Shown here: positions 33,591 to 63,880 of the stretch, one piece after another
Layout of the letters: each line of letters begins with the position of its first letter
Numbering within the stretch: position 1 is the stretch's first letter
Assembly: GCA_964560765.1 (NCBI GenBank)
Contig: CAZLMG010000001.1
Coordinates: forward strand, 5,612 to 69,611
Length of the DNA stretch: 64,000 nucleotides
Direction of reading: 5' to 3'
Origin: an uncultured Oligoflexales bacterium
GTDB taxonomy: Bacteria > Bdellovibrionota_B > Oligoflexia > Oligoflexales > CAZLMG01
Notes under the pieces: model-generated
The model's database searches: none
What the model saw: the letters and a program-made list of their open reading frames with translations, nothing else
What the model was told of the DNA's origin: nothing
Made by a program: the position numbers and the translations under genes

Positions 33591-34583
33591 ATGGCCCAGC
33601 CTGTGACGATATCGCCGGCAGCGCCCACAGCCCGCCTCGACGAGGAGGCTTTGGCCGCCCTATGCAAAGCAGCGTCCGACCCGCTGCGTATCGATATTAT
33701 GCGCGTGCTGAGCCGCGACTCCTTCGGCGTCCAGGAACTATCCCGCATCTTTGCCATGCCTCAGCCCGGCATGAGCCACCATTTGAAGATATTGGCTAAA
33801 GCCGGGCTGCTCACGACCAAGCGCGAGGGCAATTCCATCTTCTATCGCCGGGCCTTGGTTTCGTCATTACCGCGATTCGCCGATCTACAACACAGCCTCT
33901 ACGCAGCCATCGACTCCTGCACCCTGCCCGATGACCTAACCGCCCGCATCGACGTAGTGCATCAGGAGCGGGCGATGCAGGCACGACAATTTTTTGAGCT
34001 GAACGCGGAAAAATTCGCCGAACAGCAGGCGCAACTCTGTGAACTCAGCCATTACCTGACGAACCTGACGGAAATGTTGTCATTGCTGCCCAAACCCGAA
34101 GCCGCCAGCGTTTTGGAGGTCGGTCCGGGGCACGGAGAACTCCTGGCTCTGGTGGCTGAGCGTTTTGCCCGCGTCGTCGCCTTGGATAGTTCCGACGAGA
34201 TGCTGACCATGGCACGCTCGCGTCGGGAAACAGATCGGCCGAACATTCACTTTGTGCACAGCGACCTGACGCGTTTTTCCGCCAGTGGCGAGCAGTTCAA
34301 CATCGCCATTTTGAATATGGTGCTGCATCATATGCCCTCGCCGCCCGCCGTGTTTCACGAGTTGCGGCGGGTGCTCGCTGATCCAGGCTATCTGCTGCTG
34401 GCCGATCTCTGTCCGCACGAGCAGGAATGGGCGCAAGCATCATGCGGTGACCTGTGGCTAGGTTTCGCACCCGAGGAAGTCGACACATGGGCCAAGGATG
34501 CCGGCTTTGCCCCCATGCAGAGCCAGTACATCGGTTTGAAGAATGGGTTTCAAATACAGCTCAAGCTGTTTGAACGTTGGTGA
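33591..34583 (+). CDS. sahR: SahR-like regulator: ArsR-type wHTH fused to a SAM-methyltransferase-fold effector domain
   Basis: The ArsR HTH reads DPLRIDIMRVLSRDSFGVQELSRIFAMPQPGMSHHLKILAKAGLL. The methyltransferase motif I is VLEVGPGHGELL...VVALDSS. The gene lies immediately upstream of ahcY, which is the context described for SahR. Confidence 0.7.
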   Translation: MAQPVTISPAAPTARLDEEALAALCKAASDPLRIDIMRVLSRDSFGVQELSRIFAMPQPGMSHHLKILAKAGLLTTKREGNSIFYRRALVSSLPRFADLQHSLYAAIDSCTLPDDLTARIDVVHQERAMQARQFFELNAEKFAEQQAQLCELSHYLTNLTEMLSLLPKPEAASVLEVGPGHGELLALVAERFARVVALDSSDEMLTMARSRRETDRPNIHFVHSDLTRFSASGEQFNIAILNMVLHHMPSPPAVFHELRRVLADPGYLLLADLCPHEQEWAQASCGDLWLGFAPEEVDTWAKDAGFAPMQSQYIGLKNGFQIQLKLFERW

Positions 34584-34619
34584 TGATTGGTAATTTTTTC
34601 CCGTGAAAGGAAACGCAAG

Positions 34620-35981
34620 ATGACAAAGCATGATTACAAGGTAGCAGACATGAGTTTGGCGGATTTCGGCCGCCGCGAGATCAAACTCGCCGAACGTGAA
34701 ATGCCAGCCCTGATGGCCCTGCGCAAGCGCTACGGCAAAGAGCAGCCATTGAAGGGCGCGAAAATCATCGGCTGCATTCACATGACCATTCAAACAGCCG
34801 TGCTGATTGAAACATTGGTCGACTTGGGCGCGGAAGTTCGCTGGTCGTCTTGCAATATCTTCTCGACGCAAGATCACGCAGCGGCCGCCATCGCTGCCCG
34901 CGGAATCGCTGTCTATGCCTGGAAGGGACAGACGGTTGAAGAAGGTGATTGGTGCATCGAGCAAACGATTCTCAAAGACGGTAAGCCATGGGATGCCAAC
35001 ATGCTGCTCGACGACGGCGGCGACTTGACGCAAATGGTGCACAATAAGTATCCGCAGATGCTGAACAAGATTCACGGCATCACAGAAGAGACCACCACTG
35101 GCGTGCATCGCTTGATGGACATGATGAAAAAGGGCGAACTGAAAGTGCCCGCTATCAACGTCAACGACTCCATCACCAAATCGAAGAACGACAACAAGTA
35201 CGGCTGCCGCCACAGTTTGAACGACGCCATCAAGCGCGGTACGGACATGCTGCTTTCCGGCAAGAAGGCCCTGGTTATTGGCTACGGCGACGTGGGCAAA
35301 GGATCAGCGCAAAGCTTGCGCCAAGAAGGCATGATCGTGCGCGTGACCGAGATCGATCCGATCTGCGCCATGCAGGCATGCATGGATGGTTATGAAGTTG
35401 TGTCTCCTTACAAGAATGGCATCAATACTGGCAAAGAAGCCGATCTGAATTTATCCCTGTTGCAAAGCACGGATCTGATTGTGACCACCACCGGCAACAT
35501 CAACGTTTGCGATAAGTTCATGCTGGCGAATGTGAAGTCTGGCGCTGTGGTCTGCAACATCGGCCACTTTGATAACGAGATCGACACGCAGTTCTTGCGC
35601 GACAAGTACGAGTGGCAAGAAGTGAAGCCGCAGGTCCACAAGATTCACCGGGATGCCAAGGACGAAGAGAACTACATCATCCTCTTGTCCGAAGGCCGCT
35701 TGGTGAACCTTGGCAACGCCACTGGCCACCCATCGCGCATCATGGACGGCTCGTTCACCAACCAAGTGTTGGCGCAAATGTACCTGTATGAGCGCCGCTG
35801 GGCCGACAAGAAGGACAAGCCCGTGTACTTGACCGTCCTGCCGAAGAAATTAGACGAAGAAGTGGCCAAGCACATGGTCGAGGGCTTTGGTGGCGTGATC
35901 ACCAAGCTAACCAACGATCAGGCCAAGTACATCGGTGTCGAAGTGGAAGGGCCTTTCAAGGCTAACGACTACAAGTACTAA
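34620..35981 (+). CDS. ahcY: adenosylhomocysteinase
   Basis: [66 protein letters not shown] and IGHFDNEID are full-length AhcY hallmarks. ATG 34620 is preferred over 34587. Confidence 0.95.
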
Positions 35982-37977: not shown

Positions 37978-40900
37978 GTGTTGCGACACTCCCAACAAGG
38001 GAATCGGGCCACGGGCCGTTGGCTGGTAGGCATAGCTGCGCTCGCCTTGCTGCTCATATCGGCGTGCAAACAGCGGCACGCCATCGGCGAATTGCGCCTG
38101 TCCGCTGAAGGCGAGGCCGGGAATGAGAGTTACCAGCTAGCTCCCGGCGAGCACACATTCTTTCACTGGGGCAGTCGCCAGAGCAATCAACAACAACTTG
38201 AACAGGCGGGTGCGGCTGATGGGGAGCGTTCCCCTCTCGACCAACGCGTTTTTCAGTTGCTGGAACAATGGTATGAACAATCTGGGCGCAGGGATTTTGC
38301 CGGCTCTGGCTTTTATGTCTCTTCGAACCATTTGGATTCAGCTCACTATGGCGCTGATCTGATGATCGCGCAGATTACCGTCGGTAACGGTGGTCTTTTC
38401 GTCCCCTTCGAGCCAAATTTTCGCGACACCTCCAATCAGGCACGCGATCAAAATCGTCAGCAGCAACTGCCCCTCCTCGCCAAATATCGGGCGGATGTTG
38501 GATGGCACGTGATCTCCCGACCGCCTATGCCGAGTGATGACATTCAAATCAGCTTTCGTCGGCCCAAACCCGAAGACTTTCCGGGTGTATGGCGAACCTT
38601 TCCTCAGGATATCTATTCGGAGGAATTCATCAAAGCGGCACATGAAACGCTCTCCATACTATACCGCTCAAAACTTCGGGTCGACGCTAAGACGGCAGAG
38701 GCTGAAGCCTTGCTTGGCGAAGTAGCCCTGCGCGGCATTGCCGAGACTCTGCAAAAGTTCCGTCTCGACCAGCTGCCGAGCTATTTGGAAGATCAGTACC
38801 TACAAGTATTGCAGTCCCTGGCCGTCTTGTATCCAGAGCAATCCAGCGCGGCACGAACGTCCGCCGTGCTTGCGAACTCTAAGATCGCCATTGATCGTGC
38901 ATACAAGGGTGAAACGGTCGCTGTCGTCGCCAGCGCTTGGCCAGAGCTCGATCCCGTGCGCCGCGGGGAATGGCTGAACGCCTTCAGGAAAGACCTCGAT
39001 CAGTCTCGGGCAGCGCTAGCGGACATGATGGCGTTGAGCGAAGCTCTATTGCAAACTGGAGGTTATCAGCAAGATATCCAGCGCATCGTTGAGAACATTC
39101 TCCATCGGTCTGCGAACGGGCAATTGGCCCTCGGCGCGTTCCAGTCGGAGTCGATGCCAGCCGCCAGACGACTATTAGGAGAATCAGCGCCTCAAGTCGT
39201 TGCCAATGCCTTGGTGGCGCAAAGCTCGTTAAAATCGCATTATGCTGGCAGGGTGGGCGACCGCAGCCTAGTCCTGCGCGCCCGCCACCTCCTGTCATCC
39301 GCCCCCTTGCAAGATGCAGAGTTTCGCCAAGCCCTGCTCCAGAGCATAGATCGTCCACGACACTTTACCCCTGTGACAAGCAGCAAAGCCGATTTTCGTT
39401 CGGTGCTCTTTGTGGGCATGTGCGAGCAACTGAGCCTTCACCCGGAGCTAGATACGACAGAGTATCGCCTCGACCTCGCTCGCTTTCACCACAGACTATC
39501 GACACTCAACCCATTGTGGGCGCAGGAGACGGGCGTGCAGATCTACCTGACGGGAAAGGTACTGGACCCAACGGGATTCATGAGTTTTGTGCAACACATT
39601 CAACAAATGGTGCCCGCGAGTGCGAACGATCTGATGATCTCTCTGGACACCATTTCCCGCAACTTGAGTCGGGAGGGCTTCACGACCGCTGACGAACAGC
39701 GCTTTGTGACTCTGCGCAATACGCTGCAAGAGTCAGCCCGCAACCAACCCTCGACCAAGAATCCAAGCGATCGGCTGGCACAGTTGTTTCACTCGCAAGG
39801 ACTGAAATACAGATTCGAACAAGATCAGTTTGTCAAAGGGCGAACGCGCCTGCTAGAGCCCGTCTCAGGGTCGGCAGCATATAGTGAGTTAGCTCGAACT
39901 TACGTTCTGATAGATCCCATCTTTGTGACAGAAGACTTGCGGGCAAAGCAAGCCACGCGCCCCTATGAGCGATTCAATGAGGCCTATTCGGTCGGTGGCG
40001 TTAGCGAAAAGCAACCCACCTGGCAGAACTTTCTCTTTGCTTGGGAAAAAATGGCGGTCGGCTTCTTCGATGATGCCAGAAACATGTCGACCGGCGGAAG
40101 CCCACTGCAAGCATTCCAGATATGGGAACTGGCAGTGCAGCTGCGAGACCTGAACGTGGCCATGTTGTTTGGCAATGTGGAAGGTACTGGCTCGGCATCT
40201 AATGCCGAGGCTTCCTATGATCGCAGTCAATATGTGACGAAAATTTCGCGCAGCGAATGGCTGCGGCAGAACGGCGAACAAAATCGCACTGAACTATCTC
40301 GTTTCTTCGACATTTCAGATGCGGGAATACATATTGAGCTGCGCTTTAAGTCCGTCCAGGCACTAGCCAGCAAATTGCTGGATCCGGGGGAGTTTACGCA
40401 GGGTCAGCAAATCTATGCAGTGGCCGACATGTTGCTGCGCGAGGTTGTAAAAGAATCAGACCCGATACGTCGAGCCGCCAAGGTGCTGTACCTCATGCCC
40501 CGTATGCACCCGTTTAAAAACGGCAACGGCCGTTTGGGCCGCATGTGGGCTGCTCAGATTCTGGTTCGCGCCGGTCTACCCATGCCGGTAGGTTTGCCGA
40601 CGAACGACTTCCTGTTCACCGAGGAGCGCATGCAGCTGGAGGTGCGCAAGGCTTTAGCCATCGGCGCGATCTGGCAACGCGAACTAGAAAAGGCCGCTGC
40701 TGATGGGATGCCCGCCGAGCGGTTCTTTCAAGAAAGGGTTCGCAATCGCCCCCTAGAGGCCTTAACACTGCTCAGCGTGGGGGATTTGACCGCGCTCCAG
40801 ACTATCGTCACCGAGCTAGAAGCAAATCCCGGTCGCATACCAACTTGGTCTGCGGATATGGCGGCGCAGATCGATCGACTCATTTGGGAGAGCCGCGCGG

Positions 40901-49937: not shown

Positions 49938-51701
49938 TCAGTGCGAAACGCTTCTGGGCGTGAAAAGATCGTGGATAGCCATCTCTGTTGCCCCCAAACT
50001 CTGCACATGCTCTTGCTCTAACTTTTGATCTTCCTGATTTTTCTTGGCCAGGTAGTCCATGAGTCGTTTTTGCGCAGCCGCTAAAAGGGGTGTCTGCGCC
50101 TGACTCAGACCCATCCTGGTCGCAATTACTTGATAGGCACCGAACGCTAGCTCTTCATTGCGACGGCTGAGGGGAGTCGTTGGGATCCAATAAATCTTGT
50201 AGTCACCAGAGCGATCAACTAACGAAAACCCCAGCGGCTCGCCGTTCGCCTGGCTACGAAGAATCGCGATGCCGTCCTCATTGGCCGTCTCCAAAATGCG
50301 GGCATAGACGACGGGCGAGAACTCCTCTTGTGTGGAAAAGAGCACGGATAACTTCAGGGCAATCTGGTCGCTATAGACGCGAGATCGATAGGGCTGTGCC
50401 AGCACGCCACTAGCGCGGAGATAGTCATCGACGATGCCACGAACGGCGCTGGGGAAACTCAAACTTGGGGCGTTGAGAAAGCTCTCCGCCACGCTTCGAA
50501 TATTTGTCATCTCGGTCTGAAACTTGGGCATCGTCGTCACGCGCAGGCTAACGGCCTCGTTCGTCTGCTGAATACGATGCATGATCAGGCTCCAGGCATC
50601 CGCACGCGAAACGCTGTAAACAGACATAACATCGGAGATCAGACGTGCCGGCACAACGATGGGATTCTGATTGGAGGCTAATGGATTGACGACCGCTCGA
50701 CCTATTGCCCGATTGATCTCCACGGCCAATCGGTCCAGCTCAGTGGCGACGCCTGACTGACGTAGACGCGCAGCCGCATAGCGATCATACTGACTCATGG
50801 CCAGCCGATAGAGAGCACTGCCTTGTGGCGTTTGAAAATCTGATTCAACCCATTCCCGCACCAGCTGAATGGCGTTTCGCATGGCCGAGGCCTGATTGTG
50901 GACTTGGATAATGGAATCGCCGTACGATGAATACCAGTCTAAAGCATCTTGCGCCCGCGTGTGCACCATGTGGCGAACGACGTACTCTGCCTGAGTAAAC
51001 GATTCTTTGCGCGTCAGCTCTCGGAACTGCCCCTTAGGCCAGGCAAAGAGCTCCGGTAGCCAGGTAGGCATGCTTATCGTACCGGCCAAAGCTAATGCTG
51101 CAAGTTCACCATGAAACGGGACTTCAACTCCCAAGAAGTACAACGCTGACCAGGCCATCGTCGTCGCCGGAACCGCCAGCATAGCTTTTCCTATGGCGTG
51201 CCGAGTTCGAGCTCGCTGCGAGGGTATCGTCACTCCATCTTCCAGAGCTGGCGTAACCGAAGGTCGCTCCTTCGTTCCAAGCCAGTGCTCTTCTGGCATC
51301 GCAGCCAATTCATTGAGGACGCCCAGCATTTCTTCCTTCATAGCCTTTGGTTCGATTTGCACACTGCGCAGGCGCGGCCGGTTCATCCGTAGGCGGAGAA
51401 GATCTTTTAAGCTGGTAAACATCTCTTTGACGCTATGCGCGACACGATTTTGTGAAAGCACCGGGTGAGATACTTCCGCGACCACAATAGGAATCGTTGC
51501 CTGGCCCGCCGACGCCAAGATCACCTGCGAGTCCACTTGCAAAGCGCCATTGCCAGCCTTGGCCATGACACGCGATAATTCCGCGACTTCTTCAACCAGT
51601 CGCTGCTCGTGCAAGCTTTCGCCCAATTGTTGGCAAGCCTGGTTTTGTCCGCTGGCGGTGGCATGAAAGAGCGCGATCGAGAGAATGATCTTCATTTGCA
51701 T
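49938..51701 (-). CDS. exported protein with a central pair of hydrophobic segments, function unknown
   Basis: The internal ATG 51701 gives MQMKIILSIALFHATASG, a signal peptide. AMLAVPATTMAWSALYFLGV...LAALALAGTISMPTWL looks like a hydrophobic hairpin. The upstream 147 codons of the track ORF are Arg/Ser-rich, overlap the divergent ORF and are rejected. Confidence 0.45.
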   Translation of the reverse strand: MQMKIILSIALFHATASGQNQACQQLGESLHEQRLVEEVAELSRVMAKAGNGALQVDSQVILASAGQATIPIVVAEVSHPVLSQNRVAHSVKEMFTSLKDLLRLRMNRPRLRSVQIEPKAMKEEMLGVLNELAAMPEEHWLGTKERPSVTPALEDGVTIPSQRARTRHAIGKAMLAVPATTMAWSALYFLGVEVPFHGELAALALAGTISMPTWLPELFAWPKGQFRELTRKESFTQAEYVVRHMVHTRAQDALDWYSSYGDSIIQVHNQASAMRNAIQLVREWVESDFQTPQGSALYRLAMSQYDRYAAARLRQSGVATELDRLAVEINRAIGRAVVNPLASNQNPIVVPARLISDVMSVYSVSRADAWSLIMHRIQQTNEAVSLRVTTMPKFQTEMTNIRSVAESFLNAPSLSFPSAVRGIVDDYLRASGVLAQPYRSRVYSDQIALKLSVLFSTQEEFSPVVYARILETANEDGIAILRSQANGEPLGFSLVDRSGDYKIYWIPTTPLSRRNEELAFGAYQVIATRMGLSQAQTPLLAAAQKRLMDYLAKKNQEDQKLEQEHVQSLGATEMAIHDLFTPRSVSH

Positions 51702-52136
51702 AGGATCCTCTAAAGGCAACGTGCCGAGTTCCACTTCGTTGCATTTTTCCAAAATCGCCAGAACATGGAGAAGGAGTCTTACGGGCAAAGATAGCAACAC
51801 ACATGCCATCGTCGCCGCGGATGCATTGCGTCTGAATGCGAGAGACTCACAGGGGAAATCAGCGAAGGCGAGGCGCGTGGGGCTGTTGATGAACTGTGCC
51901 TGCCCTCGGGTCGAGAGACGCAACCTATCGGATCCACTAGCTAATTTCGGTTGTGTCGACGCTCGCTTCGGAAAAAAACTGCGCCTTCCATAACCGCTGC
52001 GATTTCGCGTGGATGCAGCGCTGGATCGCGCGTTTTTCGAGGGCGCATTTTTTGCAAACCGGCTCAGGCGCACACTTCGGCCATGCTGGCCGTTGCCTGC
52101 AGACAAGACAGCAGTCGCGAGATCGGGAGAGCCATC

Positions 52137-52871
52137 GTGCAAGACGCAAACAGGTTTCAGGAGATTCTGAGTGCCATCAAGATCGCACTTAAGAACAACG
52201 GGATGACGTATCGCGATCTGGGGGAAAAGCTAAACATTCCAGAATCGACGATCAAAAAGATGTTTATCGCAAAAGATTGGCCCTACCGACGCCTCCAAGA
52301 TGTCTGCGCCGTGCTAAATCTCGACTTGGCAGATTTATTGGAGTCCGTTCGCCGCCGGAAAGTGACCAATGTCGTCTTCACACCAAAACAAGAGGACTTG
52401 TTTCGAACGCAACCCTTGGCCTTTAAACTCTATTGGTGGTTGGTCTACGAGCGACTGCCGCTAGCGAAGTTTGAAAGCCAGTTTCACTTATCGACCCAAG
52501 AGTCTTTTCATCTTTTGGTTCAACTGGATAAACACGAACTGATCGAGTTGCACCCCAACAATGTCATCCGAGTGCCGGACATTCAGCCAGCGCGTTGGCA
52601 GACCAGCGGTCCCTTTATCACCGAACAAAAGCAGCAATGGGCTGTACAAACGATCAAGGATGCGGCGCGCAGCACCGATGCGGATAGCGACCGCCTTATC
52701 GTCCAATACTTTCGTTTGAGCCCAGACTCCTTCAATGAGCTACAGAATGCCATTCGCGAGCTAGAGCAGGAGTTTGCTCGACGCACCGCTAGAGACCTAA
52801 GCCTGCACGGCAAGGATCTCATCCGGGTACGCATGGCTCTGGGCGTCGCCGAGGGCAGCTTCTTGGAGTGA
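52137..52871 (+). CDS. XRE-family HTH transcriptional regulator with uncharacterised C-terminal domain
   Basis: The HTH reads MTYRDLGEKLNIPESTIKKMFIAKDWPYRRLQDVCAVLNLDLADLL. GTG 52137 lies 6 nt after GGGAGA. An alternative ATG is at 52083. Confidence 0.65.
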   Translation: MQDANRFQEILSAIKIALKNNGMTYRDLGEKLNIPESTIKKMFIAKDWPYRRLQDVCAVLNLDLADLLESVRRRKVTNVVFTPKQEDLFRTQPLAFKLYWWLVYERLPLAKFESQFHLSTQESFHLLVQLDKHELIELHPNNVIRVPDIQPARWQTSGPFITEQKQQWAVQTIKDAARSTDADSDRLIVQYFRLSPDSFNELQNAIRELEQEFARRTARDLSLHGKDLIRVRMALGVAEGSFLE

Positions 52872-56459: not shown

Positions 56460-58199
56460 CTAATCCATTCCCGGCAGATCCGTTCCATCAATTAGCAGCT
56501 GCGGTGCAGCATGATAGGCTGTGGAAACACGGCCGATGTACTGATGAGATTCTAAACAAGGACACATGCGCCCAGTCAGCGGTTCCTTTTTATTCCACGC
56601 ATAGACTGCGCCATTTTCTTCCAGAAAATACCAATTATTGCCGAGTGCGTGGGTTTTGCCCTGGAACCACCATTCATTCTTTCCACCCCAATTGAAGTTG
56701 CTGGGAGCACCGGTCAGCTGCAAATTCCTAGCGACGATGCTAGCCAGATCCAGGCCGCCCATAATGGTGGCGCGGCGGTGGTAATATTCCGCATCCAAAC
56801 GCGCCACCAACTTGCTATGGACGAACGGCTTAGCAAAGTTGGCCTTGGTGTCACGCACATCCCACTCGTAGATAAATCCGTTCGGTAAGAGAAAAAACCA
56901 TACTTTCGGCGTCGTGGCGGTGGCTTCACGGGCAAGCCAATATTCCTGGCGGCCACCCCAATTGAACGATGAAAACTCGCCGCTGGGTTTGTGCGAACTA
57001 GCAAATGCGCCGACCGAAGATGCGGGGTACGTGCCCCCATCAATCAGAGGTTGCGTGTCCGCATAGTACGAAGCAGGGACCCAGCCAATCATTTTGCTAT
57101 AAAGGGCGCCCTTGGCAAAGGTCGTTCGCGTGTCGCGCCGGTCCCAATGATAAATCTGGCCGTTTGGCAGAATAAAGACCTGCCCCGACTTTTGACTCGT
57201 AATCCACTTCTCTTGCCGCCCGCCCCAGTTATACGCGGTGGCCGAACCAAAGAGTTCGTGAGTCAAATCAATCTTGCCCGGGTTGATATCTACACCGGCC
57301 TGCAAGCGAATCCATTCGAGCTCATTGATGACCTTGGTGGCTTGACCAACAACGGCCTCATCACAGAGTTTGCCATTGGAGGATTTGCTAACACCATACA
57401 GGACGAAGCCCTCAACAGTGCGGCGAAAGACTGGCCCGCCGCTATCGCCACTACAGATCATCTGCATGTTGTCGTACCTGGCGTGCAGTGCCATGGCATC
57501 CTTCGTATTTGACGGTATATTGAAAAGGGGAGGACCCAAGACGTTGACTCCCACGCGCAATTGCCCGGATCGATCCGCCGTCCGATTCGCTTCATCGACG
57601 CCATATCCCGCGACCTCAAACTCAGCGCCTGGCTGAAAAGTATAGTCGATACCCAATTCTATGGGAGCAATCCCTTCTACGGGACGGGTTAACGTGACGA
57701 CGGCCAGATCACGTATACTCAGTGCGACCGAGGACTCACTAAAGTCAAAAGCGGGATGCGCCTCAAAACGGCTCAACTCATAGACATTGGCAGGATCGAA
57801 AGTATAAACGGAATACTTGACACCCTTGTACTCCACGAGCCACTCACCTGTTGGCCGACCAAACGTGACCCGTAGCTCTTTCAGCTTGGCCTCGGTATCC
57901 GGCTTGCAGTGGGCTGCAGTCAGCACGTGACTTCGGTTGATCAGTGACCCTGTGCAATGCTGTTGATAATAATTTGTTCCGCCAGACGTGACCTGCTTGA
58001 AGATTCCAGCCACAAACGGCAACTCGGCATGCTGAATTTCGACGCCGTTACGAAGCTGAACCTGCGTCTCGTCGGTCGAGTTCACTGCCGCTCCCGACCT
58101 TGAAGCGGAACTGGATTCACTCTCGGTCTCCTCGACCTTGCCGCAACCGAATGCAATGTGCATGCATGCTAGATACACCAGGGCTATGGTCTTGCGCAT
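56460..58199 (-). CDS. secreted trypsin-like (S1) serine protease with three C-terminal ~90-aa repeats
   Basis: TAAHC (His) and GDSGGP (Ser) are present, and the Asp is probably in SIRDLAVV. Lipobox IAFGC. The repeats are anchored by [YF]NWGG[RK]xExW at aa 324, 413 and 503. Confidence 0.85.
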   Translation of the reverse strand: MRKTIALVYLACMHIAFGCGKVEETESESSSASRSGAAVNSTDETQVQLRNGVEIQHAELPFVAGIFKQVTSGGTNYYQQHCTGSLINRSHVLTAAHCKPDTEAKLKELRVTFGRPTGEWLVEYKGVKYSVYTFDPANVYELSRFEAHPAFDFSESSVALSIRDLAVVTLTRPVEGIAPIELGIDYTFQPGAEFEVAGYGVDEANRTADRSGQLRVGVNVLGPPLFNIPSNTKDAMALHARYDNMQMICSGDSGGPVFRRTVEGFVLYGVSKSSNGKLCDEAVVGQATKVINELEWIRLQAGVDINPGKIDLTHELFGSATAYNWGGRQEKWITSQKSGQVFILPNGQIYHWDRRDTRTTFAKGALYSKMIGWVPASYYADTQPLIDGGTYPASSVGAFASSHKPSGEFSSFNWGGRQEYWLAREATATTPKVWFFLLPNGFIYEWDVRDTKANFAKPFVHSKLVARLDAEYYHRRATIMGGLDLASIVARNLQLTGAPSNFNWGGKNEWWFQGKTHALGNNWYFLEENGAVYAWNKKEPLTGRMCPCLESHQYIGRVSTAYHAAPQLLIDGTDLPGMD

Positions 58200-58530: not shown

Positions 58531-58845
58531 TTAGGCTTTGAGCCACTCCAGCATCAATTCCTTGATCTTGGTTTGATAAGGGGTTCCCTCTTGCTTCGAC
58601 TTGAATCGGAACGCTGCCAACAGCGGCTCAGGAACCTTGATGCTGATGAGCTTGCTGGGATGCTGGGCTCGCGGGTCCACCATCTGGCGAAAGGAATCGA
58701 GAAACTCGACAATTGGCGTGACATCGGCACTCGCATCGAACTTGAGGTCGGGCTCGTGCCGCCATTGAGTGGCTTGAGTTTGCGTTGTTGACTTACTGCG
58801 GGATTTACTTCTGCTTGGCACGCAGTTGCTCCAATACTTTAACAT
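58531..58845 (-). CDS. BrnA-like / ribbon-helix-helix antitoxin-like protein
   Basis: The C-terminus ISIKVPEPLLAAFRFKSKQEGTPYQTKIKELMLEWLK* matches the BrnA pattern (I.IRL....l..lk..A...GipYQtli). An alternative GTG start at 58821 lies 7 nt after GGAG. Confidence 0.5.
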   Translation of the reverse strand: MLKYWSNCVPSRSKSRSKSTTQTQATQWRHEPDLKFDASADVTPIVEFLDSFRQMVDPRAQHPSKLISIKVPEPLLAAFRFKSKQEGTPYQTKIKELMLEWLKA

Positions 58846-59281
58846 CGGCCCGATCCTGTGGCCGCCCTGTTCCAGTTTTCATTTTAATCAAATCATCGAT
58901 GGCGATGACTTGAATTTTCTTCAAGCCAAAATTTTTGGAGACAGACTTAACCTTGGAAAGGTCTGTGGTAATGATGATGTCAACGATCTCGATGGGGTTG
59001 TCTGGGTTGACGAAGCTCCAGGCAATGAGATTACGGTTCTTGATATACTCTTCACGAAATTGGAAGACTTCTTGGGCGGTCACCGGCAGTCTGGGGATCA
59101 GCCCAATGCGCCGCAATGCCCTTTCGCAGCCCACAAAATCATCCAACTTGTGGCGGATGATGCAATCGATATCGACCGTGCCACGCGGAGCGCCCAGAAG
59201 CGCCACCGCGTATCCGCCCACCAAAGCAAACGGAATTTTTTCACTGGCGAATGCGCTGCGAACTCGTTCGAGAAGACTCAA
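58805..59281 (-). CDS. Pol-beta-superfamily nucleotidyltransferase (small, TA-module type)
   Basis: FALVGGYAVALLGAPRGTVDIDCII fits hG[GS]x9-13Dh[DE]h. The C-terminus is GTGRPQDRADVKVLEQL. TTG 59281 lies 7 nt after GAGGGG and downstream of the palindromic operator. ATG 59350 would place the operator inside the CDS. Confidence 0.6.
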   Translation of the reverse strand: MSLLERVRSAFASEKIPFALVGGYAVALLGAPRGTVDIDCIIRHKLDDFVGCERALRRIGLIPRLPVTAQEVFQFREEYIKNRNLIAWSFVNPDNPIEIVDIIITTDLSKVKSVSKNFGLKKIQVIAIDDLIKMKTGTGRPQDRADVKVLEQLRAKQK

Positions 59282-59295
59282 TCCCGCACCCCTCA

Positions 59296-59316
59296 CTGGT
59301 ATATACCAGTATATAC
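59296..59316 (-). promoter_or_regulatory. candidate operator/promoter: tandem GTATATAC palindromes
   Basis: GTATATAC occurs at 59299-59306 and 59309-59316, separated by CA. The first copy is embedded in the perfect 14-bp palindrome CTGGTATATACCAG (59296-59309). The site is about 15 nt upstream of the proposed TTG start. Confidence 0.45.
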
Positions 59317-59325
59317 TACGTCTAG

Positions 59326-59571
59326 TCAGTGGGCAAGTACCGTAAAACATCTACTTTTTACCAAGCCAAACGTGATGCCGACCTCGGCAATGCCCCCGAG
59401 TTGCCCCGCGTGATTCAGATAAGGCAGCCGATCGACTTGCCCGCACTGCTCCACCCAAGGGGCCAGTCCCTCGCGTGAAGAGGCATCAGAGTGCGACGGC
59501 GTCTTGCGCAGCATGCACGAGGCTAGGAGCAGCGACAAGATCGCTGCGGTACCAAGGCTGATTCGACTCAT
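59326..59571 (-). CDS. possible small lipoprotein (81 aa)
   Basis: The internal ATG 59571 gives MSRISLGTAAILSLLLASC, a canonical lipobox. GAGAGG lies 9 nt upstream. The ORF is short and has no other support. Confidence 0.3.
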   Translation of the reverse strand: MSRISLGTAAILSLLLASCMLRKTPSHSDASSREGLAPWVEQCGQVDRLPYLNHAGQLGGIAEVGITFGLVKSRCFTVLAH

Positions 59572-59590: not shown

Positions 59591-60835
59591 CTACTTACAG
59601 GCGCAAACTCGCTGCATATTGACAGCTGATCCCGATAACGTGGTCGGTGTTGTATCCCAAAAGAATTTGCGCATATCATGGCGGTAGAAGCATCCTAGCC
59701 CATGCGATGTCGTAATATTTTCAAGGGTCTCATCTGTTTCCGTCAGCTGACGCATGACGTCCTGACAGCGTTCTCGGTTCTCCGCATAGCCAGGCGTCGT
59801 CGTCACTCCACGGTGCCCAATCAAATCGATCGTCGCCTCGTTAGCGCGCATGGAATGGTCCGCACAAACGTCTTCGCAACTTTGCTGGCTCCACAAGTAA
59901 CCGAGAAAATAGCAACTGCCAGGATCATCCGGGATGGTGACGCTGCTGCTTGGGCAACTCAATTCGCCATCATCGCTGGGACTTAAATTGGATGATGAGT
60001 TTTCCGAGCCATCCGCCGCAGCCAATAGAAAGGCCTCCCCATAAGAGGCGATATCGCCATGCAGCGAACAAACGCGCACCCAGATGTCTTCACCGCTATT
60101 TCGGCGTGAAATTTCGGCGCTCGTCACTCCTGCTGGCAGCAGCTCGCTCAACTCGCCGCCGCCACAGGTCATCGGTGGCTTCTTGCCCACGCCGATGGCG
60201 ATGGCATGCGGCAAATCGGCAACGTTGCTCGCAGTTTCGAAGCTGACCGTGAAGGTCTGTTCATCGGTCCAAGACGCAATAAGTCTGAGGACGCCATCTG
60301 TAGCGTCGATGCGCGTAAGCCCCTCGGGCGCATTCTCATCGAAGATTCGTACGAACCCCACAGTATCAGTTAGCAAGGCTGAAAGCCGTGCAGCAAAGCA
60401 AGAAGCGTCGGCAGTGTTATTCACCACCCACGATGGAATCATCAGCTGTTTGCCATGAAAGATGGCACTGGCCATACCGGCAACTTCGGGATCGAAGGTA
60501 CAAAGCTCCCAAAGCATATCCAGCCAATCGCCCATAGGCAGCTGGCCGTCAGCATCGCGAATATCTAATTGGAGTGCGTTGCTACTCGGAGACTCACTTA
60601 GTACATAGGCCAGGTTCACACTTGGAAATTCCACACCGATGCGGTCGTCGTGATACCCTGCATAATTCATCGAATCCGTAGTCCAAACCAAGTAACCGGG
60701 CAGCGGTCGGTCCTCGCCAACTTGGGTCTTTCCGCGTGCGGCGTAGCCGTCTGACGCAGCTTGTGGCGTTGCACGCGTGCATGCCACAGATACGCAGCTG
60801 GTAAGTAAGGCCAAGATGTTTATGAAACGAAGCAT
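59591..60835 (-). CDS. lipoprotein, function unknown
   Basis: MLRFINILALLTSC gives a lipobox. LPGYL motif at 60689-60703. Confidence 0.5.
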   Translation of the reverse strand: MLRFINILALLTSCVSVACTRATPQAASDGYAARGKTQVGEDRPLPGYLVWTTDSMNYAGYHDDRIGVEFPSVNLAYVLSESPSSNALQLDIRDADGQLPMGDWLDMLWELCTFDPEVAGMASAIFHGKQLMIPSWVVNNTADASCFAARLSALLTDTVGFVRIFDENAPEGLTRIDATDGVLRLIASWTDEQTFTVSFETASNVADLPHAIAIGVGKKPPMTCGGGELSELLPAGVTSAEISRRNSGEDIWVRVCSLHGDIASYGEAFLLAAADGSENSSSNLSPSDDGELSCPSSSVTIPDDPGSCYFLGYLWSQQSCEDVCADHSMRANEATIDLIGHRGVTTTPGYAENRERCQDVMRQLTETDETLENITTSHGLGCFYRHDMRKFFWDTTPTTLSGSAVNMQRVCACK

Positions 60836-61408: not shown

Positions 61409-63880
61409 TTAAAAACTCCCAAAGCGCACATAGAGGAGGTCACACGGGCCCACACCCGTACCCCCATGTTCATAGAGGGCATCAGTCACGGCACCCTTCA
61501 GTCGCGCATCGACTTCCGAGATGGCGGCACGCGGACTGGTTCCCGTGCCACGCCAATGCTTCTGCACGATTTCCGCGATAAGCTGGTCGCGATCTTCGAC
61601 GGCCAGTGGCGGATTCCCGGGCACCGCCTCATAGGCTTGGATTTGCCTTTGCAGATGCTCGGTCAAGATGCGAGCAAAGGCATCCCGATCCATCGCCGGT
61701 GTGAACGGCAACACGCCTTGGATGCGATCCACGAGTAATTCTGACAAGCCATCGCGAATTCCAGCTTCTCGCATTTGATACGGATCCGATCCACCGCCGG
61801 TGATGTAGTCCTGACCCGCGTTGGTCGTCAGCAAAATCTTGACGTTGCGCAAACTCACGCGAATGCTTGTGCCTTTTTGATCGCCCGAAGACGTTTTTTC
61901 TGTGACATAGAAGGCTCCCTCTTGAAAAGCCGCCAGTAGGCGATCTTGCGTCGCGCGATCAGCCTTTTCAATCTCATCCAAAATGATGACGGCCTGGCTA
62001 TTCGCTCGTACCGCCTCGGCAATCTCTTGCATCAGGTCCTCACTCGATCTGCCGCCCGTGCGCGAGTACGCGTTCATCTCAATGAGACGCGAGCGATAGC
62101 CCATGTTCTCGGCATAGGCTTTGGCGAATTCTGTCTTGCCGGTGCCGCGCGGCCCCATGAGGAGCATGATCATGTCGGCCTTCTGGTCACCGGGCAGGCG
62201 CACAGAGCTTTGCTTTGTCGCCTGGTATAGGGCTTCGATCGCAGGAGCCCGGTCAACAAAGCGTGCACTCATTGCCGCGCGCAAGCCCTCAATTTTTTGC
62301 CGCATCTTTTGTTGATCGAATTGCGCCGGATCGAGTTGGTACTTTTCCTGCGCCGCAGCATGGACTTCCTCGAAACTGATCGGCTGCTCTGTGCGGTCCT
62401 CGATGCTGCGTTTGGCATGCAGATAATCGACCAGCTTGGCCACCTTTCGAGGTTGGGCACCGATGGCATCAAACTGCTCGGAAAGATCATAGAGGCGCTC
62501 GCAAAGCGGCTGGGGCAACTCCTCGATACCGAATCGCTTGGCCCACAGGTTGATAGCCGCAACAGCTTCGGCACGACTGAGCGGCGGCTTTTTGTACTGC
62601 TCGAACCGGGAATACACAGCCGTCCTGCCGGCATAGGCGGCGTTAAATTCTTGCTCGGTGGAAGTGCCAATGATCCGAATGCGGCCGTCAGCTAAATGAG
62701 GCTTTAGGTACTCCCACACATCGTTGGAGTTCGCGGAGTGCGTACCTTGCCCAGAAAGCGAATGAATCTCATCGATAAACAGGATCAGTGGTGCTTTTGC
62801 CGCGGCATCGGTAAACTCCTTGATGCGGCCCTCAATCTGACCTACGAGGCTGGTGTTTGCTGAGAGCGAGCCGGCATCAATCTGGAATATGGGAGTGTCG
62901 CTTGCCAGCTCAGGATATTGACCTTGAGCCATCTGCCACACAAAGCTCTTCACCAGCTCAGTCTTTCCCGTACCAGCCTCGGCTAAAATGACGACACTGC
63001 CAACCTCGCGCCGCTGCAGGGCCATGCGAATGGCGTTCGCCCCTCTGGTATCCGTCAGCTCGAAAGGCGGTTCGTCTTGACTGATGGATACGGTTAGGTT
63101 GGTGTACCGTTCCGCCAGTTGCGCGACCTCAGGGGGCGTCGTGCTGCCCCGAGACTTTTTCGAGCGAGCGGCTGGAGGCAGGGCCTTCTGCTCCTCAATC
63201 GAAGCATCCGGATCACCCTCGATGGCAGATTCTGTCGAAACCCCCGCCAGTACCAGCAGCTCCTTTGCTAGCGCATAGTGAACCGGTAGTTTGTCGACGG
63301 AATGGACGAAGACAAGGGCTGCATCCTTAGAAGTTGTATAGAACTTCTTCAACTTCAGGGGTGCTTGCCAGCCAGCGCTCTTGAGCATGGTCTGCGCGCC
63401 GAAGTTTGACTCGCGGACAATGACGGTGGCGAACTGTCGATTCTGTTCCCCCAATCGTTCCTGGATTCGGCTTAGCATGGACCGGGCGACCCCTTTGCGG
63501 CGATAGCTCGAATGGACAGCTAAATTTTCCAGATGTATGGAATTGCGATACAGCGAGTAAATGGCAAACCCAACCACTTTCCCCTTGTGCTTCGCCACAA
63601 AGCCAATCGTACTTTTCTTGGACAAGACCGAAACGAGCATTTCCCTTGACCAGGGTTCCTGGAAACTTTGCCGCTCAATCTCTAGGACCGCGTCGACATC
63701 TCGCCGTATCAGCCAATCAAGCTCAACGTCGATCTGGCCACCTTCTGACACCTGCGACGTCACGGGCGCCGTCTTTGGGGTACAGGCCATTGCCGCCATA
63801 AGAGCCATGACTGACACGAGGATGCTGCTGCGCCAAAGCCACGAGTTGCGCATGGCAACGCCAGACATTTGTTTCGTCAT
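61409..63880 (-). CDS. fusion protein: hydrophobic N-terminus + GNAT (RimI-like) acetyltransferase + two ClpA/B-type AAA+ modules
   Basis: GNAT segment: IERQSFQEPWS...IHLENLAVHSSYRRKGVARSML. D1-like module: AEAGTGKTELV, LILFIDEIHSL, IRIIGTSTEQEF. D2-like module: LLMGPRGTGKTEFAKAYAE, VIILDEIEKA, VKILLTTNAG. ATG 63880 lies 7 nt after GGAGGA. Confidence 0.7.
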   Translation of the reverse strand: MTKQMSGVAMRNSWLWRSSILVSVMALMAAMACTPKTAPVTSQVSEGGQIDVELDWLIRRDVDAVLEIERQSFQEPWSREMLVSVLSKKSTIGFVAKHKGKVVGFAIYSLYRNSIHLENLAVHSSYRRKGVARSMLSRIQERLGEQNRQFATVIVRESNFGAQTMLKSAGWQAPLKLKKFYTTSKDAALVFVHSVDKLPVHYALAKELLVLAGVSTESAIEGDPDASIEEQKALPPAARSKKSRGSTTPPEVAQLAERYTNLTVSISQDEPPFELTDTRGANAIRMALQRREVGSVVILAEAGTGKTELVKSFVWQMAQGQYPELASDTPIFQIDAGSLSANTSLVGQIEGRIKEFTDAAAKAPLILFIDEIHSLSGQGTHSANSNDVWEYLKPHLADGRIRIIGTSTEQEFNAAYAGRTAVYSRFEQYKKPPLSRAEAVAAINLWAKRFGIEELPQPLCERLYDLSEQFDAIGAQPRKVAKLVDYLHAKRSIEDRTEQPISFEEVHAAAQEKYQLDPAQFDQQKMRQKIEGLRAAMSARFVDRAPAIEALYQATKQSSVRLPGDQKADMIMLLMGPRGTGKTEFAKAYAENMGYRSRLIEMNAYSRTGGRSSEDLMQEIAEAVRANSQAVIILDEIEKADRATQDRLLAAFQEGAFYVTEKTSSGDQKGTSIRVSLRNVKILLTTNAGQDYITGGGSDPYQMREAGIRDGLSELLVDRIQGVLPFTPAMDRDAFARILTEHLQRQIQAYEAVPGNPPLAVEDRDQLIAEIVQKHWRGTGTSPRAAISEVDARLKGAVTDALYEHGGTGVGPCDLLYVRFGSF

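What the first reader, a model, noticed from the sequence alone, without database searches (positions are those of the whole stretch)
61409..63880. GNAT (RimI-like) acetyltransferase fused to a double ClpA/B-type AAA+ ATPase behind a signal-like hydrophobic N-terminus
**Architecture seen in one ORF**
- A positively charged, hydrophobic N-terminus: MTKQMSGVAMRNSWLWRSSILVSVMALMAAMAC.
- A GNAT domain with the acetyl-CoA loop R-R-K-G-V-A.
- Two Clp-type nucleotide-binding modules with recognisable Walker A/B and sensor regions.
- No Clp N-domain and no ClpB middle domain that I can see.

**Why it is unusual**
- I know of no characterised protein with a GNAT domain in place of the Clp N-domain.
- The fusion implies coupling of ATP-driven substrate handling with acetylation.

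**Two further oddities**
- No in-frame ATG/GTG/TTG start exists between the hydrophobic segment and the GNAT domain. The anchor is therefore part of the protein, which creates a topology problem for an ATPase if it acts as a cleaved signal peptide.
- By eye, the canonical aromatic pore loops (KYRG in D1, GYVG in D2) are not evident. The equivalent stretches read NTSLVGQIEGRI and AYSRTGGRSSEDL. The protein may therefore not be a threading unfoldase.
Basis: partly seen in the sequence, partly recalled or inferred. Interest (0 to 1): 0.7.

Follow-up and report, generated by a model that had tools for sequence, protein, structure and literature searches.

The report
Export-signal GNAT fused to ClpA-like ATPase
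One gene in an Oligoflexia-like bacterium encodes a RimI-like acetyltransferase fused to a ClpA-type double ATPase behind a lipoprotein export signal; this is odd because both enzyme parts need cofactors found only inside cells, and the gene belongs to a larger, apparently undescribed family of export-signal-bearing Clp-like ATPases.

Summary
The ORF is real: minus strand, 61409-63880, 823 aa, with GGAGGA 7 nt upstream of the ATG. Its order is a lipoprotein-type signal (Cys33), a disordered tether, a RimI/NAT-like GNAT (53-194), a flexible linker, then two ClpA/B/C-like AAA+ modules. The AlphaFold model has pLDDT 88.

- **ATPase motifs:** both rings keep Walker A/B, sensor and arginine-finger residues.
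- **Pore loops:** the D1 pore loop has Leu where ClpA has Tyr; relatives have Tyr or Phe. The D2 GYVG loop is deleted.
- **Missing Clp parts:** there is no Clp_N domain, no M-domain and no ClpP-docking tripeptide.
- **First-reader error:** two in-frame GTGs (63763, 63751) lie after the hydrophobic segment, but neither has a ribosome-binding site.
- **Rarity:** the GNAT fusion forms three 50%-identity clusters among 1.84 billion representatives.
- **Wider family:** it nests inside at least 140 clusters of ClpA-like ATPases. These share the D2 pore-loop deletion, and most start with classical Sec signal peptides.

No curated model or paper describes either group. My best reading (about 0.45) is an exported Hsp100-type remodeller/acetyltransferase that works where ATP and acetyl-CoA exist, such as inside a target cell. 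Function is inferred, not shown.

The parts
63785..63880 (-). Signal peptide n- and h-regions (res 1-32), starting at ATG 63880
   Evidence: Three basic residues (K3, R11, R17) precede a 13-residue hydrophobic core. GGAGGA lies 7 nt upstream of the ATG. The segment matches a PS51257-like lipoprotein pattern and is modelled as a helix at res 2-31.
63782..63784 (-). Lipobox cysteine (Cys33, A-M-A-C)
   Evidence: A Cys follows a small residue right after the h-region in all four full-length N-termini: MAC, LAC, LSC and NAC. The regex matches 3 of 4.
63725..63781 (-). Disordered tether after the lipobox (res 34-52); contains in-frame GTGs at 63763 and 63751
   Evidence: pLDDT is below 50 for res 33-47. 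The two GTG codons have no SD sequence.
63299..63724 (-). RimI/NAT-like GNAT domain (res 53-194), with acetyl-CoA loop RRKGVA at 63485-63502
   Evidence: Pfam Acetyltransf_1 scores 8e-14. rimI TIGR01575 scores 83.1 bits against a cutoff of 86.4. PDB RimI 5isv matches at 7.5e-10, and archaeal and eukaryotic NATs also match. The model shows a GNAT fold.
63095..63298 (-). Flexible linker (res 195-262) ending in the Hsp100-type pre-D1 helix (LAERYTNLT)
   Evidence: pLDDT is low around res 215-245. The segment aligns with ClpB 'ALEKYTIDLT'.
62336..63094 (-). AAA+ module D1 (res 263-515): Walker A 62960-62983, pore loop NTSLVGQ 62837-62857, Walker B 62768-62785, Arg finger 62600-62614
   Evidence: The module aligns with ClpA D1 and ClpB. 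The motif table is and the coordinates. pLDDT exceeds 95.
61412..62335 (-). AAA+ module D2 plus C-terminal small domain (res 516-823): Walker A 62132-62155, pore-loop deletion site 62033-62074, Walker B 61973-61990, extended pre-sensor-1 hairpin 61853-61912, sensor-1 61814-61828, Arg finger 61718-61732, sensor-2 61523-61537
   Evidence: Pfam AAA and AAA_2 cover res 572-703. Foldseek matches ClpC/ClpA/ClpB chains at E about 1e-33 over 575-600 columns.
61430..61444 (-). Near-C-terminal conserved Cys motif (C813-D-L-L-Y)
   Evidence: The Cys is invariant in the GNAT subfamily and at least 90% conserved in the broader family. The C-x-x-[LIF]-[LF] pattern is visible.
61409..61411 (-). Stop codon (TAA)

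Best explanation
The gene encodes an exported, lipid-anchored Hsp100/ClpA-type double-ring ATPase. Its N-terminal domain is a RimI/NAT-like GNAT acetyltransferase.

**Shown**
- The domain order and a confident fold.
- Intact ATP-binding and hydrolysis motifs in both rings.
- A hydrophobic D1 pore loop, and a deleted D2 pore loop partly offset by a longer pre-sensor-1 hairpin.
- No ClpP-docking loop and no M-domain.
- A lipoprotein-type signal conserved across the subfamily.
- Descent from a large family of Sec-signal-bearing ClpA-like ATPases, in which the usual beta-rich N-domain was swapped for a GNAT.

**Inferred**
- The protein is exported by Sec and lipidated at Cys33.
- It hangs from a membrane, vesicle or cell surface on a roughly 15-residue tether.
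- It assembles into a hexamer.
- It acts where ATP and acetyl-CoA are available outside the producer's cytoplasm. The most plausible place is inside, or in contact with the contents of, a target (prey or host) cell. This fits the Bdellovibrionota/Oligoflexia origin of the window.
- The GNAT sits above the D1 pore and binds and/or acetylates a protein substrate. RimI relatives acetylate protein N-termini.
- D1 grips and remodels the substrate. D2 hydrolyses ATP without gripping it.
- The machine is a stand-alone remodeller rather than a protease partner.
For: - **Architecture and fold:**
- **Catalytic motifs:** conserved in the subfamily and the parent family.
- **Real fusion:** the same architecture appears in four lineages and in 14 contigs for P0121.
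- **Start site:** ATG 63880 has an SD sequence and matches the public call.
- **Lipoprotein signal:** Cys is conserved in 4 of 4 N-termini, and 3 of 4 pass a PS51257-like pattern. Two neighbouring genes in the window also carry lipoboxes. A disordered tether follows the Cys.
- **Parent family:** 78 of 124 full-length members pass a strict signal-peptide test, against 1/111 and 0/114 ordinary Clp controls.
- **Orientation:** mean flank charge is +2.5 on the N side and -0.6 on the C side. N exceeds C in 89 of 96. The median hydrophobic core is 12 residues, which indicates a signal peptide with N-in orientation rather than a transmembrane anchor.
- **Descent:** the GNAT clade is monophyletic and nested within this family in an NJ tree.
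- **Host lineage:** the best named Tex hits are Oligoflexus, Pseudobacteriovorax and Oligoflexales at about 60% identity. Oligoflexia is a group of Bdellovibrionota, a phylum of bacterial predators (PMC8067016).
- **Precedent:** an Hsp100 working outside its producer's cytoplasm is known in Plasmodium HSP101 (PMC6550532).
Against: - No experimental data exist on localisation, lipidation, ATPase activity or acetyltransferase activity.
- No dedicated signal-peptide predictor was available. The tests are home-made regex and hydropathy rules.
- ATP and acetyl-CoA are not known to be available in a diderm periplasm, so export makes the enzyme useless unless a further delivery step exists. No secretion system or conserved partner gene was found nearby.
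- Predation is not demonstrated for this lineage.
- The RimI catalytic Glu103/Tyr115 equivalents are Ile and Leu here. The acetyl-CoA loop is degenerate in P0121 and P0004, so the GNAT may be a binding module rather than an enzyme.
- D1 has Leu, not an aromatic residue, in the window protein.
- Some relatives carry ClpX-like IGF motifs that point to cytoplasmic ClpP as a partner.
- The NJ tree has no support values.
Confidence: 0.45

Rival explanations
1. The protein is a resident periplasmic or outer-membrane lipoprotein that works in the producer's own envelope. It would either use ATP that reaches the periplasm (for example during predation, or released ATP), or act as an ATP-independent holdase/scaffold with relic nucleotide sites.
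For: The export-signal evidence is the same as for the best explanation. Neighbouring genes are lipoproteins and a secreted-type trypsin-like protease. No secretion machinery or partner gene is linked.
Against: Walker A/B, sensor-1, arginine-finger and sensor-2 residues are conserved in both rings across a deep family. This argues for selection on ATP hydrolysis. The acetyl-CoA loop is intact in the window protein, and acetyl-CoA has no known periplasmic pool (established knowledge).
Confidence: 0.2
2. The N-terminal hydrophobic segment is an uncleaved membrane tether, and the GNAT-ATPase body stays in the cytoplasm. The protein would be a membrane-proximal quality-control or modification machine with normal access to ATP, acetyl-CoA and, in relatives, ClpP.
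For: Three cytoplasm-dependent features support this: ATPase motifs, the acetyl-CoA loop, and ClpX-like IGF loops or tails in a subset of relatives. One relative lies beside clpP-clpX-lon. The window protein's uncharged stretch is 18 residues, which is borderline for a membrane span.
Against: Charge bias (N side +2.5, C side -0.6; N exceeds C in 89 of 96) predicts N-in/C-out, the opposite of what this model needs. The median hydrophobic core is 12 residues, and P0121 has only about 13, too short for a span. The conserved lipobox Cys, and the AxA-type sites visible in the listed N-termini of relatives, fit cleaved signals.
Confidence: 0.15
3. Translation starts downstream at GTG 63763 or 63751, giving a soluble cytoplasmic GNAT-ClpA-like protein. 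The signal-like segment would be untranslated or a minor isoform.
For: Two in-frame GTGs lie just before the GNAT domain. P0121 and P0004 have a Met at the GNAT start. A truncated-contig gene call (P0003) starts there.
Against: The GTGs have no SD sequence, while ATG 63880 has GGAGGA. Signal sequences are conserved in 4 of 4 subfamily members and in most of the parent family, and would not persist if untranslated.
Confidence: 0.08
4. The ORF is an assembly or frameshift chimera of a separate rimI-like gene and a clpA-like gene.
For: On one metagenome contig the GNAT part (350 aa) and the ATPase part (P0005, 556 aa) are called as two genes overlapping by 49 nt.
Against: The same fusion, with the same linker, occurs in P0002, P0121 (14 contigs from several samples) and P0004. 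There is no compositional break at the junction. The linker ends in the conserved Hsp100 pre-D1 helix.
Confidence: 0.02

Closest known systems
ClpA (E. coli; PDB 1KSF, 6UQE, 7UIV)
   Same: It has two AAA+ modules without a middle domain. It is the best sequence match (E 2e-33 over res 282-689) and a top structural match. Walker A/B, sensor-1, arginine-finger and sensor-2 residues are all present.
   Different: This protein has no Clp_N domain (a GNAT instead), no D2 GYVG pore loop, no IGL ClpP-docking loop, Leu for Tyr in the D1 pore loop, and a single D1 arginine finger instead of two. It also carries an N-terminal lipoprotein signal. It scores 155 bits against the ClpA model cutoff of 993.
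ClpB/Hsp104 disaggregases
   Same: Both have the double AAA+ architecture and lack a ClpP-docking loop. The pre-D1 helix motif is similar, and structural matches are strong.
   Different: This protein has no coiled-coil M-domain (a large alignment gap), no D2 pore loop and no Clp_N. ClpB and Hsp104 are cytoplasmic.
RimI and the NAT family (bacterial RimI PDB 5ISV, 2CNM; archaeal Ard1; eukaryotic Naa10)
   Same: The GNAT fold, the PWS motif and the R-x-x-G-x-A acetyl-CoA loop are shared. The rimI model scores 83.1 bits, just under its cutoff of 86.4.
   Different: The RimI Glu103/Tyr115 positions are Ile and Leu. The domain is fused to an ATPase and sits behind an export signal.
Plasmodium HSP101 of the PTEX translocon
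   Same: It is an Hsp100/ClpB-type ATPase that works outside the cytoplasm of the cell that makes it, where it unfolds and threads proteins (PMC6550532). This is a resemblance in logic only.
   Different: HSP101 is eukaryotic and keeps a substrate-binding N-terminal domain and the M-domain (PMC6550532). No close sequence kinship to HSP101 was seen. PDB chains named 'Heat shock protein 101' match only D1, at E about 4e-20, and their organism was not checked.
TmcA/NAT10 (ATP-dependent RNA cytidine acetyltransferases) - from my own knowledge, not tested here
   Same: It is a single polypeptide that couples an NTPase motor to a GNAT acetyltransferase.
   Different: Its NTPase is a helicase-type P-loop, not a double AAA+ ring. 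Its substrate is RNA, its domain order differs, and it is cytoplasmic.
Torsins (ER-lumenal AAA+) - from my own knowledge
   Same: They are AAA+ proteins with a signal sequence that act in a non-cytosolic compartment and lack canonical aromatic pore loops.
   Different: They have a single AAA+ module, need activator proteins and are eukaryotic. The ER lumen imports ATP.

Membership tests
Hsp100/Clp class-1 (double-ring) AAA+ | Two tandem AAA+ modules with Walker A/B, sensor-1, arginine finger and sensor-2 | tested here: met
   Pfam finds two AAA stretches. The motifs are aligned. Foldseek matches ClpA/C/B at E about 1e-33 over about 580 columns.
Hsp100/Clp class-1 (double-ring) AAA+ | Clp_N (PF02861) N-terminal domain | tested here: not met
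   Pfam finds no PF02861 hit, and a GNAT occupies the N-terminal position.
Hsp100/Clp class-1 (double-ring) AAA+ | Aromatic pore loops in D1 (KYR) and D2 (GYVG) | tested here: not met
   D1 reads SLVG, with Leu for Tyr; relatives have F, Y or L. The D2 loop is deleted in the whole family.
ClpA (NCBIfam TIGR02639 equivalog) | Score above the curated cutoff | tested here: not met
   The score is 155 bits against a cutoff of 993.15.
ClpA/ClpX/ClpC (ClpP partners) | IG[FL] docking tripeptide between D2 sensor-1 and the arginine finger | tested here: not met
   The segment is 29-31 residues in the GNAT subfamily and has no [ILV]G[FLM]. There is also no IGF-like C-terminal tail.
ClpB/Hsp104 | Coiled-coil middle (M) domain inserted in D1 | tested here: not met
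   The alignment shows a gap of roughly 130 columns opposite the ClpB M-domain. The model has no long coiled coil.
RimI (NCBIfam TIGR01575 equivalog) | Score above the curated cutoff | tested here: not met
   The score is 83.1 bits against a cutoff of 86.4, a marginal miss. P0002 scores 74.1 and P0121 scores 52.8.
RimI / GNAT | Acetyl-CoA pyrophosphate-binding loop Q/R-x-x-G-x-G/A | tested here: met
   RRKGVA aligns with RimI QRQGLG. The loop is degenerate in P0121 (QRNRIG) and P0004 (RGRNVG).
RimI | Catalytic Glu103 and Tyr115 (residue assignment from my knowledge of the Salmonella RimI structure work) | tested here: not met
   The aligned positions are Ile and Leu in the window protein. The Tyr position is L, L, F and L across the four full-length members.
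Bacterial lipoproteins (signal peptidase II substrates) | Basic n-region, short h-region, lipobox ending in Cys | tested here: met
   A PS51257-like pattern matches the window protein, P0002 and P0121. P0004 misses by one position. The Cys is conserved in 4 of 4.
Bacterial lipoproteins (signal peptidase II substrates) | Actual cleavage and lipid modification | not testable with these tools
   This needs biochemistry, such as globomycin sensitivity or mass spectrometry.
Known anti-phage defence ATPases (PADLOC) | Specific match to a defence-system model | tested here: not met
   Only generic AAA+ hits of 33 bits or less were found.

The most novel reading that the evidence does not exclude
The window protein and its parent family may be a previously unrecognised class of exported Hsp100-type machines that Bdellovibrionota-like bacteria deliver into other cells. 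There they would run on the victim's ATP. The GNAT variant would also use the victim's acetyl-CoA to modify proteins. Relatives with ClpX-like IGF motifs would dock onto the victim's own ClpP and drive uncontrolled proteolysis.
Probability: 0.25. Interest if true: 0.9.

Novelty: new variant of a known kind. Interest (0 to 1): 0.7.

Why it matters
Hsp100/Clp ATPases are textbook cytoplasmic machines, and the bacterial periplasm is regarded as free of ATP and acetyl-CoA. This protein carries two cytoplasm-dependent enzyme modules behind a conserved lipoprotein export signal. Its parent family has at least 140 clusters that mostly carry Sec signals and share a deleted D2 pore loop.

If export is real, there are two possibilities. 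Bacteria may deploy AAA+ unfoldases and acetyltransferases as weapons or tools in other cells. Alternatively, nucleotide-driven protein remodelling may occur in an envelope compartment.

The protein is also a natural test case for two mechanistic questions. One is what a double-ring Hsp100 can do with only one pore-loop-bearing ring. The other is what placing a protein N-acetyltransferase at the pore entrance achieves.

Tried and rejected
**Searches that gave nothing useful**
- **Genome-contig scan with the full-length alignment:** the tool chose Walker A/B patterns, so only ordinary ClpA at 25-29% identity came back.
- **Third homolog search, with a 40-member profile of the parent family:** it was swamped by ClpB/C and gave no taxon names.
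- **Metagenome-contig scan with a family-specific sub-alignment:** it recovered only the P0121 gene again.
- **Viral-contig scan:** no relative was found, so a phage origin is not supported.
- **Plasmid tblastn with P0253:** only ordinary Clp ATPases at about 25% identity.
- **Cluster look-ups:** no organism names for any family member.
- **Local tblastn of neighbour proteins against the 80 named loci:** uninformative for taxonomy.
- **Exact look-ups of P0001 and P0002 contigs:** not on record, so the region upstream of the window and the P0002 context could not be seen.
- **PADLOC:** generic AAA+ hits only, so the defence-system idea was dropped.
- **Rfam on the window:** nothing.
- **Promoter and terminator scan:** no more sites than in shuffled sequence.

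**Ideas tested and dropped**
- **Conserved operon partner:** the downstream 414-aa lipoprotein is unrelated to the DUF4421 gene downstream of P0121. Contexts of six relatives share nothing.
- **Fold of the parent family's N-domain:** it is beta-rich and weakly propeller-like, with no significant PDB match. It gave no functional clue.
- **First crude signal-peptide test:** it produced false positives in controls from a Clp_N helix at about residue 31. It was replaced by a stricter test.

**Literature**
- Four full-text searches found no description of the fusion or of exported bacterial AAA+ proteins.
Full report
**1. The observation**

A single ORF runs on the minus strand from 63880 (ATG) to the TAA stop at 61409-61411 and encodes 823 aa. 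The mechanical ORF list starts it 27 nt earlier, at a GTG.

ATG 63880 is preceded by GGAGGA with a 7-nt spacer. The public gene call for this contig (P0001: 823 aa, 100% identical, on a 322,807-bp NCBI contig) starts at the same ATG.

That is wrong. GTG codons occur at 63763 (Val40) and 63751 (Val44), although neither has a Shine-Dalgarno sequence. The frame stays open upstream to the window edge, so the start rests on the SD sequence, the public call and homologue N-termini.

GC content shows no break along the gene.

**2. Domains**

- **Pfam:** Acetyltransf_1 covers res 63-170 at 8e-14. AAA is found twice (3.8e-26) and AAA_2 once (res 572-703). There is no Clp_N and no ClpB_D2-small hit.
- **NCBIfam:** ClpA scores 2.4e-45 over res 288-744, but only 155 bits against a cutoff of 993. 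The rimI model scores 83.1 bits against a cutoff of 86.4.
- **PDB sequences:** ClpA matches at E 2e-33 over res 282-689. RimI matches at 7.5e-10. Archaeal and eukaryotic N-terminal acetyltransferases also match.
- **AlphaFold2 model, 98-sequence alignment:** mean pLDDT is 88 and pTM 0.73. It shows a helix at 2-31, disorder at 33-47, a GNAT fold at 53-194, a low-confidence linker at about 195-250, and two AAA+ modules with pLDDT above 95.
- **Foldseek:** the top matches are ClpC, ClpA and ClpB chains at E about 1e-33 over 575-600 aligned columns.

**3. Motif anatomy**

D1:
- Walker A is AEAGTGKT and Walker B is ILFIDE.
- There is a single arginine finger (YSRFE), where Clp proteins have RR.
- The pore loop reads N-T-S-L-V-G where ClpA reads G-T-K-Y-R-G. 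The equivalent residue is Phe in P0002, Tyr in P0121 and Leu in P0004 and P0005.

D2:
- Walker A is GPRGTGKT and Walker B is VIILDE. Sensor-1 Asn687, arginine finger Arg719 and sensor-2 Arg784 are all present.
- The stretch holding the GYVG pore loop is deleted.
- The pre-sensor-1 beta-hairpin is about 10 residues longer than in ClpB (res 657-676).

Other features:
- There is no M-domain.
- Between D2 sensor-1 and the arginine finger the subfamily has only 29-31 residues and no IG[FL] tripeptide. A ClpP partnership is therefore not expected.

GNAT:
- The acetyl-CoA loop RRKGVA aligns with RimI QRQGLG, and the RimI-type PWS motif is present.
- The positions I know as the RimI catalytic pair (Glu103 and Tyr115) are Ile and Leu.
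- The loop is degenerate in P0121 and P0004.

**4. The N-terminus is a lipoprotein-type signal, and it is conserved**

All four full-length subfamily N-termini have a basic n-region, a 12-16-residue hydrophobic core, a small residue and then Cys. The endings are MAC|T, LAC|S, LSC|K and NAC|K. Three of the four satisfy a PS51257-like pattern.

The residues after the Cys are disordered, as I would expect for a lipoprotein tether. Two neighbouring genes in the window (56460-58199 and 59591-60835) also have lipoboxes.

**5. How rare is it, and where does it come from?**

A word-indexed search of 5.8 billion clusters found only P0002 (70% identity), P0003/P0121 (41%), P0004 (36%) and P0005 (ATPase part only). 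Scores then dropped from 478 to 134 bits for ordinary ClpA.

An exhaustive HMMER profile search of 1.84 billion representatives found GNAT-covering matches only in the clusters of P0001 and P0003. P0005 represents the third lineage. P0121 occurs on 14 contigs from several freshwater samples. The fusion is therefore genuine and very rare.

The same search listed 147 further representatives that match only the ATPase part (profile positions about 230-800), at 200-464 bits. A handful of the lowest-scoring ones look like ordinary Clp proteins: they have Clp_N-like N-termini and branch with the ClpA outgroup.

These relatives share the D2 pore-loop deletion. They mostly keep an aromatic D1 pore loop and the catalytic motifs.

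Most begin with classical Sec signal peptides, often followed by an F-x-F-x-N-G motif. A strict test scores 78 of 124 full-length members as signal-bearing, against 1/111 and 0/114 ordinary Clp controls.

Flank charges are +2.5 on the N side and -0.6 on the C side. N exceeds C in 89 of 96, and the median hydrophobic core is 12 residues. This predicts export of the body, not a cytoplasmic body on an N-out anchor.

Their N-domains have no Pfam or NCBIfam match. They fold as a beta-rich, weakly propeller-like domain without a significant PDB neighbour.

In an NJ tree rooted on ordinary ClpA, the five GNAT-lineage sequences form one clade nested 12 nodes inside this family (no support values). The simplest history is a domain swap, beta-rich N-domain to GNAT, within a lineage that already carried an export signal.

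**6. Organism and context**

The window's Tex protein best matches Oligoflexus, Pseudobacteriovorax, Oligoflexales and Bdellovibrionota proteins at about 60% identity. The host is therefore a divergent Oligoflexia-like diderm. Oligoflexia is one of the groups of Bdellovibrionota, a phylum known for predation (PMC8067016).

Most large ORFs in the window have no family assignment. No gene neighbour is conserved between the window, P0121, P0004/P0005 and six parent-family contigs. The protein probably acts without a dedicated operon partner.

There is no relative in viral contigs, none on plasmids, and no specific defence-system match.

**7. Mechanism**

What is shown is the architecture, the conserved catalytic residues, the export-type N-termini and the evolutionary nesting. 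The rest is inference.

The protein needs ATP, and its acetyl-CoA site looks intact. Yet its N-terminus says it leaves the cytoplasm. I therefore favour (about 0.45) an exported, lipid-tethered hexameric remodeller. It would act where those cofactors exist outside the producer, most plausibly in or on a target cell. In this model the GNAT above the D1 pore binds and/or acetylates the substrate, D1 grips it, and D2 acts as a non-gripping ATPase ring.

The rivals are:
- an envelope-resident role (0.2);
- a cytoplasmic body on an uncleaved tether (0.15). This is disfavoured by the charge bias and the short cores, but encouraged by IGF motifs in some relatives;
- a downstream start giving a soluble protein (0.08);
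- an assembly chimera (0.02).

**8. Comparison with known systems**

The ATPase works like, and folds like, ClpA/ClpB/ClpC. It fails the defining tests of each named family: no Clp_N, no GYVG, no IGL loop, no M-domain, and scores far below the curated cutoffs.

The GNAT is RimI/NAT-like but misses the rimI cutoff marginally and lacks RimI's catalytic pair.

Plasmodium HSP101 is the nearest precedent for an Hsp100 working outside its maker's cytoplasm (PMC6550532). From my own knowledge, TmcA/NAT10 is the nearest precedent for an NTPase-GNAT fusion, and torsins for a signal-bearing AAA+ protein without aromatic pore loops.

Four literature searches found no description of this fusion or of exported bacterial AAA+ proteins.

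**9. Verdict**

The finding is real and unusual. I rate it a new variant of a known kind: an Hsp100-type ATPase with a new N-domain, a lost D2 pore loop and an export signal. It sits inside a sizeable uncharacterised family. Interest is 0.7. The score is held back by the lack of any experimental anchor and by home-made signal-peptide tests.

Noticed in passing
Proteins P0243-P0389 (not in the window); loci L085, L086, L087, L089, L090: This is a large, apparently undescribed family (147 listed 50%-identity representatives, a few of the weakest being ordinary Clp). Members have a Sec signal peptide, a beta-rich N-domain (often with an F-x-F-x-N-G motif), and a ClpA-like double AAA+ body lacking the D2 pore loop. 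The N-domain has no Pfam or NCBIfam family and no significant PDB fold match.
   Followed up: partly
P0243 (KPIGFGS), P0253 (NRIGFYR); C-terminal tails of P0256, P0271, P0286, P0306 and others: A subset of the parent family carries a ClpX-like IGF motif exactly where ClpA and ClpX have their ClpP-docking loop (28 of 130). Others carry '(R)RIGF' C-terminal tails (13 of 147, against 0 of 115 Clp controls). This suggests ClpP docking, which conflicts with their export signals. The GNAT subfamily has neither motif.
   Followed up: partly
L089:10001-17207 (GCA_038144835.1, JAYQON010000002.1): The family member P0253 lies convergent to a housekeeping lon-clpX-clpP cluster. This is a single case and may be coincidence.
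   Followed up: no
window 61430-61444 (Cys813) and the C-termini of the family: A single Cys about 5-12 residues from the C-terminus, in a C-x-x-[LIF]-[LF] motif, is invariant in the GNAT subfamily and at least 90% conserved in the parent family. Its function is unknown.
   Followed up: no
window 61853-61912 (res 657-676): The D2 pre-sensor-1 beta-hairpin is about 10 residues longer than in ClpB. It may partly substitute for the missing D2 pore loop.
   Followed up: no
window 56460-58199 (-): This is a lipoprotein-signal trypsin-like serine protease (Pfam Trypsin, 2.3e-19). Its C-terminal half contains three repeats of about 60 aa with the pattern NWGG(R/K)(Q/N)E.W ... LPNG.IY.W and has no family match.
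   Followed up: no
window 58531-59350 (-): Two overlapping genes, a DUF6036 nucleotidyltransferase and a CopG-like antitoxin, look like a toxin-antitoxin pair.
   Followed up: no
window 59591-60835 (-): A 414-aa lipobox-bearing ORF lies directly downstream of the target gene after a 573-nt gap. It has no Pfam or PADLOC match and is unrelated to the gene downstream of P0121.
   Followed up: partly
metagenome contig of P0005 (JGI 3300059473): Here the GNAT part (350 aa) and the ATPase part (556 aa) are called as separate genes overlapping by 49 nt. This is either a frameshift or a genuine split version of the fusion. No DNA was available to check.
   Followed up: no
window 1-56000: Most large ORFs (for example 5557-7785, 12230-14257, 37978-41040 and 49938-52142) have no Pfam or NCBIfam match. 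The recognisable genes include Tex (1655-4246), an ArsR-methyltransferase fusion (33591-34583), AhcY (34587-35981) and a heparinase-like lyase (42401-44575).
   Followed up: partly
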